A DNA stretch of 36,078 bases from a virus. The stretch lies in the UHGV virus genome UHGV-2168191; one strand, written 5' to 3'. Position numbers: made by a program. Positions 9,001-15,000 of this stretch are shown here, one piece after another. Numbering within the stretch: position 1 is the first letter of the stretch; every line of letters begins with the position of its first letter.

Positions 9001-12000
9001 AATGAGATACCCCTGACTGACCAGGCTGCGCATTTTGGCGCGGATGCCCTCGATAATGTCGCGCGCCAGCGACGGGTTCAGCGGTTTGTCCACTGCCCAC
9101 ATGTGCGCTTCTGCCATTGTGTCCGTCAGCACCTGCGCCGTGCGGGTGTAGTTTTCGAAGGCAAAGAGCGGGTCATCACTCAGGCAGCGGGAACCCCAGA
9201 AGCGGAAACCGTCTTTACGCACAAGCGTGGTGACGTCGTTCTGGTTCAGCAGACCTGCATCGGTTGCCGGGTCCTGCAGATCCCAGAACACATCTGCAGA
9301 AATTCCGGTGACACCGTTCACGCCCACGTTGGACAGGCTTTTGTGCCACCCAGTCTGCTCATCAATTTTGGCACGCAGACCAAGCGCACGGGCGGTGGCA
9401 TATGCCGTTGCTTCGGCATTCAGCACCGTGTCCCAGCCAGTAAAGTCGGGCCAGATCAGCATTCCTTCGCGCTGGCTGAAGTTTTCACGGTAAGTGATCG
9501 CCTCCTGTACCGTCTTGCAGCCATACGCTGACAGGTAGGCAAACCCACGCAGGCTTTGCGCCACACTCAGCAACTCAGTCGCAACGGCTTTGTTATCGTG
9601 ACCTGGCACGCCGAGAATGCGCGGTTTAACGCCGAGCTGTGTCTGGGCAGATAACAGGGCTTTCATACCTGTTTTTTTACCTTCAGCAGTCACTGCGCCG
9701 ATGATATTGGTCGTGGTTTCGTCTTCCGTTTCACCCTGCGGCACACGCACAACAATGGTCACGGGTTTTGCCTGGTCAGCGATGGCATCCAGCGAACGGG
9801 CCAGAGTACCTGACTCACCCGCTTTACCGCTGGCAGTCAGCACATCAGTGATCAGCACGGGTTTATTAAGAGGAAACATTTTTGCATCGGCATCATCGCC
9901 CGTGCAGACCATACCCACGATGGCGGTGCTCACCGTGGTAATGGATCGGGTGCCTTCGTTGACTTCAACAACGCGCACCCCGTGGTGGTAATCCTGAGCC
10001 ATAGTGGCGAACCTCCTGATTGGATTAGGCTTCGCCCTATGTTGAAGTGATTGTGCCTGACAAACAGCTAAGCGCAGTTGTATCGTTATTCACACAAAAT
10101 GACGGTATTTGTCTGCTTGCAGGGATAATCAAAATAATGCTGATTCAGGGGGATTCATTACTCTTATTTGCCGGAAATTTTCTATAAATTGTGGAAACAC
10201 CCACATCAAAAATCAGTGCAATACGCTGTCTTGATTCTCCGGCCTCGAGTAAACGCCCAATCTGTGCCCACTGTTCGGTGGTCAACTTAGGACGGCGTCC
10301 ACCTACTCTGCCTTTGGCACGAGCTGCAGCCAGCCCTGCCCTGGTACGTTCAACTATCAGTTCGCGTTCCATTTCAGCCAGGGCACCCATGACATGAAAA
10401 AAGAAACGGCCCATTGGGGTACTGGTATCAATACTGTCAGTCAGGCTTCTGAAATTCACACCACGCTGGCGCAACTCTTCTATCAGCGTAACAAGATGCC
10501 GCATACTGCGCCCCAACCTGTCCAGCTTCCAGACAACCAGCGTGTCTCCTGCCGATAGTGTCCTGAGTAGTTTTTTCAGCCCCGGTCTGTCGGACTTAGT
10601 GCCACTGATTTTGTCCTCAAAAATCCGCTCACATCCCGCGCAGTTCAGTGCATTACGTTGCAAATCGGTGTTCTGGTCATTTGTTGACACGCGTACATAG
10701 CCAATAAGCATGATCATCCCCCTGAATAAAAACCGGAGATGATGCCAGTTAGCTGTTACCTCTGCATTTTCTTAAACGTTGGTTTGGGAGAAGCGGCAAA
10801 ACGAAATGTGGGCAACGGGGAAAACCAAATCCCTGATATGTCTTTCTGGACGGTTACTGGTGGCAATGGAAATTTTGTGATTCGTCAACCTGACGGGCTA
10901 ATCATTCAGATGGTTACTGTAAGTATAAGCGGTCCAGTGGCGATGAATGGAATGACTGATAATGCTTATGCCATTACAGGTTCTAATAAGTCTTATATTG
11001 CCACAGCCACATTGCCCTTTGTATTTCCTAATAAGGTACTGGGCGTTATCCCTCTGGTATCAACAACAGCTTATGGTGGTGTATCCAGTAATATTACAGG
11101 TTCATACGCGACTGCGGTTTGTTCTTTTGCCGCTGTCAGGGGGAATAATACGATTGTGTTCAAAGTCGACAAACCACTGAATGCAGCCTTTCCTTCAGAT
11201 ACCAGCGTCTCAGCGTTAATCATTGGACGGTAATAATGAACTCAGTATTCTTTTCACCCGGAAGTAAAAGTTTTTATCTGCAAGAATTGTTTCCAGAATA
11301 TGAGGATGCGGGAACGCTTCCTGATGATGTTATTGAAATTACCAGAGAAACATATGAGCAATTTCTTGGGCTGCATCCAGAAGGGAAAGAAATTGGCGCT
11401 GATAGTTCAGGACGGCCAGTATGGATTAATTCCCCACCCCCTTCAAAAGAGGATGAGGTGCTGGCGGCTGAAATGAAAAAAATATCTTTGGTTTCAGAAG
11501 CCAATACCTACATCAATACCCATCAGTGGCCTGGCAAAGCTGCTATTGGTCGTCTGAAAGGTGACGAGCTGGAACAATATAATTTATGGCTGGATTATCT
11601 GGACGCACTGGAACTGGTTGATATCTCCAGTGCTCCAGATATTGAATGGCCTACGCCTCCGGCAGTTCAGGCCAGATGACATCCGGCGCGGTGCTGGTAT
11701 CTGTTGCCGTCACCGCGTCAATGTAATCCAGCACAGCGTTAAGCCGGGTTGTTTCTGCCTGCGTCAGCTTCCGCCCGGCCTGTAATTTCAGTTGAATCAG
11801 ACTAATGGAAGCCATTGCAGCATCAATCAGTGACTGACGCTGTGCTTCTGCCGCTTCGACTGCTGCGCTATGCTGTGCCTCAGTATCTGTTACCCATTTC
11901 TCACCATCCCATTTATCGTATGGCGTTAACGGGGCGATAGTGGTCGTGTTTTCAGGGTAATCACCCGGAGCTGTGATTTCTTTTGATTCTCCTGTTTCGG

Positions 12001-15000
12001 TGCTATAGATGATTTCACCGCGATGGTCTGGCACATATCCCCATGAGTTAAAATCTGCAGAACGGCAAATTGCATAACCAGCTTTATATGAGCCAGGAGC
12101 ATCTAAACAGGAACATGCCGGGATACCGACACCCACAGCAAGATATTCAGTTGATGTGGAAATATATTCTCGTGTCTCACCATCATAATTGTAAACGGTA
12201 ATGTCTCCCGCCTTTGTGGTGATGAGTTCGCTATTTAATACAGCTTTATTCATCATGCGGCCCTCACAATATAATTAAAGGCGATGTTACGTGGACGATT
12301 TTCATTTGCTGTTGGAACAACATTTGCCGCCGAGAAGTGAACATCTTGTCGGATTTTTCGGTCATTAGCGTATGTCATAGATACATTGATGTTATTCCGG
12401 ACTGAGGTACCTCCGTAAAAAGCTCCACTCACACTTTGAACATCGACAATTGCATTAATTTCGCTGTTTACGCGCAACTGACCAAAACCGCCAGTAATGT
12501 TTCGAATAGCATCTCCTTGCGCTGAAAGCAGAGTTCGCCCACTATCCACACCACGTTCATCATCCCAGCCACGAATAAACTCACCACGTAAATCAGGCAA
12601 TTTATTTGTCGGGTAAACTTTTGCCAGTTCAGGGTATTCTTCAGCAGAAAAAGCTGCACCATTGCATTTCAGCCAGCCTGTTGGAGGAGTGGCTGAAGGC
12701 CACGGAACAGGCACCCCAACCGGTAATGCAGAGCCTTCCCCCAAACCAAGGTATGAAAGAACATCTTTCCACCCGGCACCATTGCTGTTTGGATCAGATA
12801 GATTTCCTTCTGTTGTGTTAATAAATATTCTTTCCCCATCGTCCGAGATGAGCATCGCCCCTGACGGATATCCAGAAATCTCCGAAGCAAATTCAGAATC
12901 AAAAGTATTCAGCGCCCCGGTGCTCGACCATCTCCCCAGAGCAGAAAGTTCGTATAAAATTTGGTTCATATCCTGGCCTTTTGGCGGCAAACCGCCAGCA
13001 GATTTCAGGATCATTGTTATTGGAGGAAACCCCTGTTCATACGATGCTGAGTTATCACCTGCAGGGGTGGTTGGCAATATTGCCCCTCTCTGTCCATTAA
13101 CTCCAAATGGCTTAGGTTGTTTTTTAGGTGAGTCAGAACGATTCATGCTTAATTCCTATAAAATGTGCCGTCATTAAATGGATATGCATCTGTAGCAAAA
13201 CCAAAGTATGGGCTTACAATTTGTTTGATATTTACCTGAACTCCACTTGGTACAGGAGTCACATCGTAATTTGTTAAAATCGATTCTTCGTAGGGAGCAA
13301 GTGAGAACTCAAAATTTATACCAATGGTCATATCTCTGTAATTGACACAATATGCTCTGCCTCGTTGATAAAAAAGTATTTTAAGAAATTTATTTATATC
13401 AGGAATGGTTGCCACACTGATGTTAGCAAAAGCCTTGCAGAGTATTAATGTTCTGTAAGCGTCATCCCCGAGCCTGACATTTGTTGTTTCCTGCACGCCA
13501 CCATAAAAAGGAGAATCATTAAATGGTGAAGGATAATCAGTGCCTCCATCGTCAGCCTCACTAAACCCAAATGAGTCACTGTCAATTGAAGCGACAATGT
13601 ATCTGCTTATACCTACTATTTTCCCCCACATATCAAGGCCAAAAGATTCACACGTTGTCAAATCCCATACCTTTTTGATGAATTCATCTGTGAAGTCATC
13701 GAGGCTTACCGCCTGATTAAAAGTGTCAATGATAGATAATAATTTTTTGCTTGCCGAGTATTGGGTAAGAATTGTGTCTTCCCACATACCGCTCCCCCTA
13801 CGATAATGTAACAGTGATATCTGATTCCTGAATGGTTGGAACCTGGTCTATGCCCATAGTCACAGCAGGTCCGTATAGTGAACCATCTATGGAAACTTCA
13901 AGAGACAAAATTCCAACTGTATCAGGAGATATTGAAATAACAGGGGCATAGTATTTACCAGCATTTATCGTCGAACCAATTCGTGACTTTCCAATACCCT
14001 CATACCCTCCATTGAACACAGTGACAATCATTTCCTTTACTTGTTTAGTAATATCACTTGGGGGATTTAGTGAAGCATCGACATTTACCTTAAAGTAAAC
14101 CCGCGTAGGTGATGCCTTTTGCCATTGCATTACATAAGATGGATATGGCGGCATGTAATTAACGTTATCGTAAACAGTGAACGTTGTATTACCATTCATA
14201 TTGGCGCCGGGGTTATAAGTATTGAATATTGACTCGGCAACATCCGTATCAGCCCCGCCATAAACACAAATATAAACAGAATGCGCAAGAATCGGGAAAT
14301 TCGTTGTTCCTTTATTTACTGTTTCTGCAGTTCTGTTTGACCATACGTAAGCATCAAGCACACCATCAGTCGCAAGTAACGCTGCTAATGTAGATGCGTC
14401 CTGATTTCGACTGTTTCTGGCAACTGATTGTCTCCGGCGAGTTTCAAAGGCGATACGTGATTCAACATCAACACCAACGACTCCAGGGCTAATATTATTT
14501 ACAGCATCCCACCCGGAAACGGCTCGATAAATCTGGTTCAGTGAACCGGCGGCACACGGAATCGGCCCGGTTGTTGTGTTGACAAACTGCACATCAACAG
14601 AGCCTGATGAGGGTATTACAGCATTATCAATTGACTGATATATATACCCGCTCGTATCCACAGCGGTACTCCCTGCTGGTATTGTTGTTCCAACCTGACC
14701 AATGCATGTTGCTGTAACAACTGTCCCCTGAGCAGCGATCCGCTCCATAAAGTAAATCCGACCAATCCCGTCCTGGAATCTGCCAGTTGAGAAGTCAGGG
14801 TTAATTTGATTAAACAAACAAAGAAGTTTGTCGTATTCCTGAGCAATAATTTCAGTGTCAGACTGTGCGATCTGCCCTTGCGGTGAACTCAGTGATTGAC
14901 TAGCACCACCGCCAAGAGCCGTTGACATGTCTGTAAGTCTTCCCGCCAGCACATCCGCTATGTCGGGAACTGAAAGACCGTTTTCAGTGATGGTTACATC

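What the first reader, a model, noticed from the sequence alone, without database searches (positions are those of the whole stretch)
10145..13146. Invertible tail-fibre segment with 26-bp gix-like sites and in-frame alternative C-termini
Inverted sites at 10767-10792 and 12736-12761 share TTC(C/T)CCCAAACC-AA-(C/G)GT.T.AAGAA. Both crossover dinucleotides fall at codon positions 2-3 immediately before a conserved GLGE block, so inversion swaps the fibre C-terminus (...SYLGLGEGSALP...) for the silent plus-strand one (...GLGEAAKRNVGNGENQ...) and its cognate Tfa. This is a complete host-range switch, and it lies between two different tail modules.
Basis: partly seen in the sequence, partly recalled or inferred. 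Interest (0 to 1): 0.5.

Follow-up and report, generated by a model that had tools for sequence, protein, structure and literature searches.

The report
Invertible phage tail-fibre switch, known type
This is an intact copy of the well-known Pin/Gin-type DNA switch that flips a 2-kb segment to swap the tip of a phage tail fibre; the only unusual feature is that it sits where two different E. coli prophages were fused by ordinary homologous recombination inside the switch.

Summary
Two 26-bp sites (10767-10792, 12736-12761) lie in inverted orientation with matching AA/TT cores. Each core sits at codon positions 2-3 just before G-L-G-E. A 188-aa serine invertase lies next to them (Mu Gin E=8e-93; 87% to e14 PinE). 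Simulated inversion gives an in-frame 283-aa fibre followed by the second chaperone.

Near-identical loci occur in both orientations in public genomes, including the same P2-like prophage at the same ybjL site (L022 vs L023). The window's silent C-terminus is the expressed one in L006. The sites align without gaps with pix, cix and gix. Two Fis-like motifs 48 bp apart lie inside the stretch P1 annotates as the Cin enhancer.

This is the known e14-P / Mu-G / P1-C kind of switch, so it is not novel.

The "two tail modules" remark is also correct, and it has an explanation. The window is an exact two-parent recombinant. Positions 1-12630 are 100% identical to a P2-like prophage at ybjL (L022). 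Positions 12523-25027 are 100% identical to a Pam3/E217-type prophage at ybhB/bio (L017). The join lies in a 108-bp shared stretch of the variable fibre part, 118-226 bp inside the segment. It therefore arose by homologous recombination, or by an assembler join, and not by the invertase.

The parts
10145..10711 (-). pin-type DNA invertase, 188 aa (MLIGYVRVSTNDQ...). The ORF list extends it to ATG 10717, but relatives start at 10711.
   Evidence: Pfam Resolvase 2.3e-53 plus HTH_7 1.5e-15. Mu Gin PDB 3UJ3 E=8.2e-93 over residues 3-186, with the catalytic Ser motif kept. 79% identical to P1 Cin and 86.7% to K-12 PinE. The L004 annotation starts at the equivalent of 10711.
10622..10693 (.). Putative Fis-dependent recombinational enhancer inside the 5' end of pin (gene nt 19-90). 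The Fis-like 15-mers lie at 10675-10689 and 10627-10641.
   Evidence: P1 annotates cin nt 19-90 as the enhancer. Motifs matching (G/T)NNYRNNWNNYRNN(C/A) occur at gene nt 23 and nt 71, 48 bp apart, in the window's pin, pinE, cin and gin. Fis binding was not tested.
10767..10792 (.). Crossover site L (pin-proximal), core TT at 10779-10780. The outer half is 10767-10778 and the inner half 10781-10792.
   Evidence: It matches the e14 pin-proximal site at 25 of 26 positions.
10793..11233 (+). Sv', the currently unfused alternative fibre C-terminus (AAKRNVGNGENQ...IIGR). It also reads as a 164-aa ORF from ATG 10739.
   Evidence: Weak Pfam Gp53-like_C match. It is the expressed fibre C-terminus in L006, with 1 aa difference.
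11236..11679 (+). Tfa', the tail-fibre assembly chaperone that pairs with Sv'.
   Evidence: PF02413 2.9e-28. 57% identical to K-12 TfaP. It follows Sv' in the flipped loci L006 and L023.
11651..12256 (-). Tfa, the chaperone that pairs with the expressed Sv (TfaE type).
   Evidence: PF02413 1.1e-32. 92.5% identical to K-12 TfaE.
12253..12735 (-). Sv, the expressed variable C-terminal part of the fibre (collar domain, StfE type).
   Evidence: Pfam Collar 4.5e-15. Similar to K-12 StfE.
12523..12630 (.). Interval that contains the join between the two parental prophages. These 108 bp are identical in both parents.
   Evidence: Window versus L022 has 0 mismatches over 1-12630. Window versus L017 has its only mismatch at 12522.
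12736..12761 (.). Crossover site R, inside the fibre ORF, core AA at 12748-12749. The sequence is the phage-A parent's version of the site.
   Evidence: It is identical to the site in L001 and L017, and differs at 4 positions from L022's site R.
12762..13146 (-). Sc, the constant N-terminal part of the fibre (about 128 aa), belonging to the Pam3/E217-type prophage.
   Evidence: 100% identical to L017. The P2-like relatives have a different, longer Hc at this position.
2856..10002 (-). Right arm of the P2-like prophage: FI sheath, FII tube, E/E', T tape measure, U, D, ogr. It abuts host ybjL-ybjM-grxA (1-2620).
   Evidence: Pfam and PHROGs matches. Co-linear with the annotated loci L004 and L022.
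13149..36078 (-). Late region of the Pam3/E217-type myovirus ('phage A'): terminase, portal, head, DUF3383 sheath, tube, lytic tape-measure-like protein, an Arc/antirepressor block, and baseplate (hub, sheath initiator, J-like, DUF2612 wedge).
   Evidence: PHROGs and Pfam matches. Gene calls on L017.

Best explanation
The locus is an intact Din-family invertible tail-fibre cassette of the type found in e14 (P segment) and in P2-like prophages. It works like the Mu G and P1 C segments.

The invertase Pin (10145-10711, minus strand) is expected to bind the two 26-bp sites as dimers. It should be activated by Fis bound to an enhancer inside the first 90 nt of its own gene, cut both sites at the central AA/TT dinucleotide, and rotate the strands. 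This inverts the 1970-bp stretch 10779-12749.

In the present orientation the fibre ORF reads Sc (12762-13146), then Sv (collar, StfE type), followed by the chaperone Tfa (TfaE type). After inversion the same Sc is joined in frame, at the Leu codon before G-L-G-E, to Sv' (AAKRNVG...), followed by Tfa'.

What is shown: the sites, the reading frames, the invertase family, both orientations in relatives, and an expressed Sv' fusion in a relative. What is inferred: that Fis binds, that inversion happens in this particular strain, and that the two tips recognise different receptors.

The odd surroundings come from a second, unrelated event. A Pam3/E217-type prophage normally ends fibre-Tfa next to ybhB/bio. 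Its fibre gene recombined with the fibre gene of a P2-like prophage at ybjL, within 108 bp of identical sequence in the 5' part of Sv (12523-12630). The two fibre genes are directly oriented and about 109 kb apart in a reference genome, so the simplest route is a deletion. That deletion removes the first prophage's own Sv end, its Tfa and its attR, then ybhB-bio-uvrB-moa up to the ybjL side, and the left two-thirds of the P2-like prophage. What remains is phage A's baseplate and fibre stub joined to the P2-like switch, invertase and orphaned FI-to-ogr genes.
For: Sites, cores and frames. Invertase identity.

Site alignment with pix, cix and gix taken from real records. The published e14 repeat TTGGTTTGGGAGAAGG equals the inner halves of these sites (PMC12529663).

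Enhancer: P1 annotation; conserved Fis-like 15-mers 48 bp apart.

Both orientations: the predicted inverted junction spans 20 complete E. coli genomes at up to 98.7% identity, and the as-is junction spans 80. L006 is flipped and expresses the window's Sv'. L022 and L023 are the same prophage at the same site in opposite orientations, with inversion end points inside the 18-bp overlaps that hold the cores. Inversion of e14 and of P2-like prophage segments has been shown experimentally (PMC4272514; PMC12529663).

Fusion: the window is 100% identical to L022 over 1-12630 and 100% identical to L017 over 12523-25027. L017 shows phage A ending at ybhB-bioA. The distance and relative orientation of the bio and ybjL loci were checked in ECO2947.
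Against: No reads or second orientation are available for this strain, so activity here is not shown. Fis binding and the promoter of pin are not established: the promoter scan was at chance level, and third-codon conservation in the enhancer is not raised.

The integration site of phage A in the window's own strain is inferred from L017, because the window ends inside phage A. The exact 297-aa chimeric fibre is not on record in any other assembly, and no complete E. coli genome has the junction. The fusion is therefore a single observation and could be an assembler join across the 108-bp shared stretch.
Confidence: 0.88

Rival explanations
1. The switch is real, but the join to the second tail module is an assembly artefact. 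On this view the strain carries both prophages intact, at ybhB and at ybjL, and the assembler crossed from one to the other through the 108-bp identical stretch in Sv.
For: The window is a perfect two-parent mosaic with no private mutations at the join. The chimeric fibre protein is absent from a very large protein collection, and the junction is absent from 5,426 complete genomes. Metagenome runs of one project (PRJEB12124) hold both parents at 100% identity, on contigs that break in this region.
Against: A 108-bp repeat is shorter than common read lengths and is normally resolved, or it breaks contigs rather than fusing them. The related assemblies do break there (L018, L024-L026). A true recent recombinant would look identical.
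Confidence: 0.2
2. The two prophages were joined by the invertase itself, acting on the site in the phage-A fibre gene and on a site of the P2-like cassette (site-specific exchange at the core dinucleotide).
For: BLAST homology to the P2-like relative L004 stops on the last base of site R. Phage-A relatives carry an orphan copy of the site with no invertase of their own. The site is a recurrent mosaic boundary in that lineage: hits H62, H63, H72 and H73 begin at 12731-12741. Invertases acting in trans on other prophages are documented (PMC12529663).
Against: With both parents identified, all seven informative positions between 12631 and the core at 12748/9 (12631, 12685, 12712, 12715, 12721, 12739, 12747), including two in the inner half-site of R, carry the phage-A allele. 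The switch to the P2-like parent occurs 118-226 bp further in. From established knowledge of Din invertases, deletion between directly repeated sites is strongly disfavoured.
Confidence: 0.03
3. The cassette is kept by the host as a phase-variable anti-phage device rather than as a host-range switch. On this view inversion changes which fibre-tip protein is made from the short pin-proximal ORF or from the fused fibre, and that product blocks receptors used by other phages, as reported for e14 StfE2.
For: The fused element has probably lost attR of phage A and the capsid and baseplate genes of the P2-like phage, so host-range switching may no longer matter. The pin-proximal site lies in a short ORF with its own ATG at 10739, as in e14. 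PMC12529663 reports that the e14 inversion product StfE2 blocks T2 adsorption.
Against: There is no expression or phenotype evidence here. The window's Sv' is unrelated to the StfP C-terminus that makes up StfE2 in K-12. The intact parent prophage L022 carries the same cassette as an ordinary phage gene set.
Confidence: 0.12
4. The cassette is a fossil: the sequence is intact but inversion no longer occurs in this strain.
For: Site R is the phage-A version, with C at position 4 of the inner half and a diverged outer half. It has never been seen paired with this invertase in another genome.
Against: Mu gix also has C at that position. The cores match, the invertase ORF is intact, and it is 99.5% identical to an invertase in a sequenced phage record. 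Din invertases are known to tolerate considerable half-site variation and to cross-complement one another (PMC12529663).
Confidence: 0.1

Closest known systems
e14 P segment with PinE (E. coli K-12 cryptic prophage e14)
   Same: The layout is the same: fibre stub, site, Sv, Tfa, Tfa' and Sv' reversed, site, then the invertase transcribed away from the segment. Pin is 86.7% identical to PinE and Tfa is 92.5% identical to TfaE. The pin-proximal site matches at 25 of 26 positions, the core is AA, and the G-L-G-E junction is the same. An e14-like locus is 91.5% identical in DNA over 10171-12752.
   Different: The K-12 segment is 1797 bp and carries StfP/TfaP as its second pair. The window's Sv' is unrelated to the StfP C-terminus, and Tfa' is only 57% identical to TfaP. 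Here the constant fibre part belongs to a Pam3/E217-type phage, not to a lambdoid remnant.
Invertible fibre cassettes of P2-like prophages in E. coli (for example EPEC E2348/69, and loci L004, L006, L022, L023)
   Same: Positions 1-12630 are 100% identical to L022, which places the cassette between gene H and FI of a P2-like prophage at ybjL. Both orientations are seen at that site (L022 versus L023). Inversion in P2-like prophages has been shown by sequencing and PCR (PMC4272514).
   Different: In the window the P2 H constant part, I, J, W, V and everything upstream are missing. They are replaced by another phage's fibre stub and baseplate.
Mu G segment / Gin and P1 C segment / Cin
   Same: The invertase family is the same (Gin E=8e-93, Cin 79% identity). 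The sites are 26 bp and align without gaps, at 16-19 of 26 positions. The codon register of the crossover before G-L-x-E is the same. The Sv-U / U'-Sv' logic is the same. The Fis-like motifs lie at the same gene positions as in the P1-annotated enhancer.
   Different: The gix core is GA rather than AA. The Mu and P1 segments are 3-4.2 kb with much longer Sv parts. In P1, cin is transcribed towards the segment and overlaps cixL.
Min multiple-inversion system of plasmid p15B, and the three-site P2-like cassette of EPEC
   Same: Din-family invertase and fibre C-terminus exchange.
   Different: Those systems have three to six sites and many permutations (PMC4272514; for p15B, my own knowledge). 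The window has exactly two sites.
Hin / hix flagellar phase variation in Salmonella
   Same: The recombinase subfamily is the same, with 26-bp sites, an AA core and a Fis-dependent enhancer within the invertase gene (PMC3798978).
   Different: Hin flips a promoter and carries its own gene inside the segment. Here the invertase is outside the segment, and the flip exchanges coding 3' ends.

Membership tests
Din-family DNA invertases (Gin/Cin/Pin/Hin subclass of small serine recombinases) | A protein of about 190 aa with an N-terminal resolvase catalytic domain, including the active-site serine, and a C-terminal helix-turn-helix | tested here: met
   Pfam PF00239 2.3e-53 (residues 5-137) and PF02796 1.5e-15 (140-183). 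The alignment to Gin 3UJ3 keeps YVRVSTNDQ.
Din-family DNA invertases (Gin/Cin/Pin/Hin subclass of small serine recombinases) | Closer to characterised invertases than to resolvases | tested here: met
   Gin 312 bits versus gamma-delta resolvase 123 bits. 79% identical to Cin and 86.7% to PinE. No NCBIfam equivalog reached its cut-off, which only shows that the library has no dedicated model.
Din-family DNA invertases (Gin/Cin/Pin/Hin subclass of small serine recombinases) | Two 26-bp imperfectly palindromic sites in inverted orientation with identical central dinucleotides | tested here: met
   Cores are AA/TT. Half-site symmetry is 8 of 12, as in cix and pix. There are 2 hits against 0.02 expected.
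Din-family DNA invertases (Gin/Cin/Pin/Hin subclass of small serine recombinases) | A recombinational enhancer in cis with two Fis sites about 48 bp apart, located in the 5' part of the invertase gene | tested here: inconclusive
   Degenerate Fis-consensus 15-mers lie at gene nt 23 and 71, exactly 48 bp apart. They are conserved in pinE, cin and gin, and fall within the P1-annotated enhancer. The motif is weak, synonymous-site conservation is not raised, and binding cannot be tested here.
Din-family DNA invertases (Gin/Cin/Pin/Hin subclass of small serine recombinases) | The segment actually inverts (both orientations coexist) | not testable with these tools
   No reads exist for this strain. 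Indirect evidence: near-identical loci occur in both orientations; one isolate contig ends exactly at the core of R (L024); and there are published experiments on e14 and P2-like prophages.
Invertible tail-fibre cassette (Mu G / P1 C / e14 P type) | The crossover lies inside the fibre ORF, so a constant N-terminal part is joined in frame to either of two C-terminal parts | tested here: met
   In-silico inversion. The codon register is the same as in Mu, P1 and e14. There is a natural fusion to Sv' in L006.
Invertible tail-fibre cassette (Mu G / P1 C / e14 P type) | Each variable part is followed by its own assembly chaperone, and the two pairs are in opposite orientation | tested here: met
   Both Tfa ORFs match PF02413. 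They are convergent with a 29-nt overlap.
Invertible tail-fibre cassette (Mu G / P1 C / e14 P type) | The two orientations give different host ranges | not testable with these tools
   Inferred from Mu and P1. The two Sv parts are unrelated in sequence (Collar versus weak Gp53-like_C).
P2-like prophage (right arm) | The gene order FI-FII-E/E'-T-U-D-ogr next to the attachment site | tested here: met
   Co-linear with annotated L004 and 100% identical to L022 and L025.
P2-like prophage (complete element) | Baseplate V-W-J-I, fibre H constant part, capsid and early genes present | tested here: not met
   From 12631 onward the window is another phage, so only a remnant of the P2-like element is present in the window.

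The most novel reading that the evidence does not exclude
The fusion is real and happened in vivo. Homologous recombination through the conserved 5' part of Sv grafted a complete P2/e14-type invertible cassette, with its invertase, onto the fibre stub of an unrelated Pam3/E217-type myovirus. Both exact parents are still present in public data. This would be a caught-in-the-act example of how invertible host-range switches move between tail architectures. If the composite still makes particles, or a tailocin-like product, Pin would now switch the target range of a different phage. The same event would have deleted about 85 kb of chromosome (bio-uvrB-moa...).
Probability: 0.3. Interest if true: 0.4.

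Novelty: already known. Interest (0 to 1): 0.2.

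Why it matters
As a switch, it adds nothing new. The mechanism, the site type, this invertase lineage and its inversion in E. coli prophages are all documented, and the cassette is 100% identical to one in other assemblies.

Its modest value lies in the context. The window is an exact recombinant of two identifiable prophages, joined inside the invertible segment. This illustrates that the conserved 5' end of the variable fibre part is a homologous-recombination handle that can move whole receptor-binding cassettes, invertase included, between unrelated tails.

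It is also a practical warning for annotation. Two tail gene sets around a fibre switch can indicate a prophage-prophage deletion or a mis-join, rather than a composite machine.

Tried and rejected
1. My first reading was that the homology break at the last base of site R meant Pin had fused the two prophages. I rejected this once both parents were found.

2. My first SNP inference, using the proxy relatives L001 and L004, placed the crossover at 12557-12577. It proved over-confident, because other fibres share most of the 'phage-A' alleles. It was replaced by the exact two-parent comparison, which gives 12523-12630.

3. An exact look-up of the 297-aa chimeric fibre found nothing. An exact 49-mer scan of genome contigs found nothing. 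The same scan of metagenome contigs found 7 contigs, none of which carries the chimera. The source genome was therefore not found, and I could not walk beyond the window's right end.

4. The promoter and terminator scan of 9900-13400 was at chance level. No promoter is assigned to pin.

5. Third-codon-position conservation, used as a test of enhancer constraint, showed no excess.

6. NCBIfam has no equivalog above its cut-off for the invertase, the fibre or the chaperones.

7. Megablast of the phage-A baseplate against the phage collection gave no match. That phage is named here only from Pfam domain names on L017.

8. A 12-bp inverted repeat brackets pin. It shows no compensatory change among relatives, so it remains unresolved.

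Full report
**Observation.** The repeat finder lists them as the top inverted pair: arms 10767-10793 and 12735-12761, 1941 nt apart.
- Read as 26-mers with the segment-side half first, R is TTCCCCCAAACC-AA-GGTATGAAAGAA and L is TTCTCCCAAACC-AA-CGTTTAAGAAAA. They are identical at 20 of 26 positions, and the central dinucleotides match.
- A family consensus (TTCYCNNAAACCAASGTWT, up to 2 mismatches) hits the window only at these two places, against 0.02 expected.
- Each core lies at codon positions 2-3: codon 133 of the 297-aa fibre ORF (13146..12253, minus strand) and codon 14 of the plus-strand ORF 10739..11233. G-L-G-E follows in both.
- Inverting 10779-12749 in silico yields an uninterrupted 283-aa fibre (...SYLGLGEAAKRNVGNGENQ...IIGR), followed two bases later by the second chaperone ORF.
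Everything else stands.

**Anatomy.** Reading along the minus strand, the order is:
- Sc (12762-13146)
- site R
- Sv, with a Collar domain (12253-12735)
- Tfa (11651-12256, PF02413)
- on the other strand, Tfa' (11236-11679, PF02413) and Sv' (10793-11233)
- site L
- a resolvase-plus-HTH ORF transcribed away from the segment.

The recombinase matches Mu Gin (PDB 3UJ3) at E=8e-93 over its whole length, with the catalytic YVRVSTNDQ motif. It scores far above the resolvases. It is 79% identical to P1 Cin and 86.7% to K-12 PinE. By comparison with relatives, its true start is the ATG at 10711, giving 188 aa.

**Comparison of the sites with real records.** I took cix from the annotated P1 record, gix from the Mu record, and pix from an e14-like locus and from K-12.
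- All align without gaps.
- L matches the e14 pin-proximal site at 25 of 26 positions.
- The core is AA as in cix and pix, whereas gix has GA.
- The published e14 repeat TTGGTTTGGGAGAAGG (PMC12529663) is the inner half of these sites.
- The crossover has the same codon register, positions 2-3 of the codon before G-L-x-E, in Mu S, Mu Sv', P1 S, the e14-like fibre and both window sites.

**Enhancer.** P1 annotates cin nt 19-90 as the enhancer. At the same gene positions, the window's pin, pinE, cin and gin all carry 15-mers fitting the degenerate Fis consensus. They lie at nt 23-37 and nt 71-85, exactly 48 bp apart, which corresponds to window 10675-10689 and 10627-10641. From my own knowledge of the Hin, Gin and Cin enhancers, 48 bp is their spacing. 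The motif is weak, and synonymous sites are no more conserved there than elsewhere. I therefore treat the enhancer as consistent but not proven.

**Does it invert?** No reads are available for this strain, so I tested the prediction across other genomes.
- A 1001-nt query of the predicted recombinant junction (pin-site-Sv-Tfa) is spanned in 20 complete E. coli genomes at up to 98.7% identity. The as-is junction (pin-site-Sv') is spanned in 80.
- L006 is a P2-like prophage with the segment flipped. Its fibre ends ...LLTYLGLGEAAKRNVGNGENQ..., which is the window's silent Sv' with one amino-acid difference, followed by Tfa'.
- L022 and L023 carry a sheath protein identical to the window's, at the same ybjL site, in opposite orientations. 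In L023 the flanks are co-linear up to 10793 and the stretch 10776-12749 is inverted. The end points therefore fall within the short overlaps that contain the cores.
- One isolate contig (L024) stops exactly at 12749, the core of R. That is what an assembler does when both orientations are present in the reads.
- Inversion of the e14 segment and of P2-like prophage segments has been shown by PCR and sequencing (PMC4272514; PMC12529663).

**The two tail modules.**
- To the left are P2-type FI sheath, FII tube, E, T, U, D and ogr, then host ybjL-ybjM-grxA.
- To the right is a full late region of another myovirus. It has a DUF3383 sheath, a tube, a lytic tape-measure-like protein, an Arc/antirepressor block, and a baseplate with a hub, a sheath initiator, a J-like protein and a DUF2612 wedge. 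On a relative these genes carry the Pfam names E217_Gp32 and Pam3_gp18.
- Relatives of this second phage end with fibre plus one Tfa directly next to host DNA, and have no invertase.
- Relatives of the P2-like element continue from site R into H-I-J-W-V.

**How they came together.** The homology to L004 stops on the last base of site R. That first suggested the invertase had made the join. A SNP comparison with proxy relatives pointed instead to a switch inside Sv. I then found that most of those alleles also occur in unrelated fibres, so I looked for the true parents.

Exact-protein look-ups found them.
- L017 is a 179-kb gut-metagenome scaffold. It is identical to the window from 12523 to 25027, with its single mismatch at 12522.
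- L022 is identical to the window from 1 to 12630. All nine of its mismatches lie at 12631-12757, where the window carries the L017 base.
- The window is therefore an exact two-parent recombinant. The join lies within the 108 bp (12523-12630) that the parents share, 118-226 bp inside the invertible segment.
- Site R, including its inner half, is the phage-A version. This rules out exchange at the core and points to homologous recombination, or to an assembler crossing the same repeat.

**Geometry.**
- In L017 the phage-A fibre and Tfa are followed by ybhB(-), bioA(-), bioBFCD(+) and uvrB(+).
- In E. coli ECO2947 the same genes, in the same orientation, lie at 4.3217-4.3299 Mb. The P2-like fibre gene lies on the + strand at 4.4292-4.4308 Mb, with ogr and ybjL at 4.440 Mb.
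- The two fibre genes are thus direct repeats about 109 kb apart. Recombination between them deletes what lies between and leaves exactly the window's order.
- I estimate that about 85 kb of this is chromosome and about 23 kb is prophage, assuming a 33-kb P2-like element.
- A Campbell-type insertion of a circular phage-A genome into the P2-like fibre gene would give the same local picture.
- The window ends inside phage A, and I could not find the source genome. Deletion, insertion and mis-join therefore cannot be separated here. I rate a real in-vivo event at roughly 0.75 and a mis-join at roughly 0.2.

**What this means for function.** All parts of the switch are intact, and the cores match, so inversion is expected, as it still occurs in the defective e14. 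If the deletion is real, phage A has lost its attR and its own Tfa, and the P2-like element has lost its capsid and baseplate genes. The composite probably cannot excise normally. Any role of the switch would then be in particles made in situ, or in a host-side function such as the adsorption block reported for the e14 inversion product StfE2 (PMC12529663). The window's Sv' is unrelated to the StfP C-terminus that forms StfE2, so that idea is only a lead.

**Verdict.** The finding is real and correctly interpreted, but it belongs to a long-known kind and is sequence-identical to cassettes in other assemblies. The surrounding chimera is a well-resolved example of prophage-prophage recombination inside a fibre cassette. 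It is of modest interest.

Noticed in passing
window 10143-10154 and 10716-10727: A perfect 12-bp inverted repeat (ATTCAGGGGGAT / ATCCCCCTGAAT) brackets the invertase gene. One arm covers its Shine-Dalgarno sequence and the other its stop codon, so the pin mRNA could pair 5' to 3' and hide the ribosome-binding site. Both arms are kept in L006, L007, L012 and L013. L004 has one arm altered without compensation. The repeat is absent from pinE, gin and cin. About one such repeat is expected by chance in 6 kb.
   Followed up: partly
window 10739-10792: The pin-proximal site lies inside a short ORF start (ATG 10739, MMPVSCYLCIFLNVGLGE). Whichever variable part is 'silent' therefore still has a start codon and a 13-aa leader. 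The same holds for K-12 e14 StfE (MPFACYFFIFINVGLGE) and Mu Mup52. A 2025 paper reports that such an e14 product blocks T2 adsorption.
   Followed up: partly
L024 (GCA_009767805.1 WSPW01000006.1), L025, L026: Contigs of other assemblies that carry the identical P2-like sheath end at or near the segment borders. L024 ends exactly at the equivalent of window 12749, the core of site R. L026 ends 9 nt before site L. L025 ends inside Sv'. This pattern is expected when both orientations are present in the sequenced culture.
   Followed up: partly
L018 (ERR1190804) and L025 (ERR1190803), project PRJEB12124: Two runs of one human gut metagenome project hold both parental sequences: phage A at one mismatch in 12.5 kb, and the P2-like right arm at 100% identity. 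The unrecombined parental strain, or the source of the window, probably comes from that cohort.
   Followed up: no
window 18325-21852: A block of Arc-like repressor, two antirepressor genes and a P63C-domain gene sits in the middle of the phage-A tail operon, between the lytic tape-measure-like gene and the baseplate genes. Its content differs among relatives L001-L003.
   Followed up: no
L001 7885-7983 (E. coli KCJ3K291): A phage-A relative next to dacD keeps a C-terminal fragment of an opposite-strand Tfa after its own Tfa, plus an orphan site R identical to the window's. This suggests that this lineage once carried, or repeatedly gains and loses, an invertible cassette.
   Followed up: no
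window 11651-11679: The two chaperone genes converge and overlap by 29 nt at their 3' ends, exactly as tfaP and tfaE do in K-12 e14. The inverted repeat I4 (11589-11606 / 11715-11732) reflects their shared C-terminal motif.
   Followed up: no
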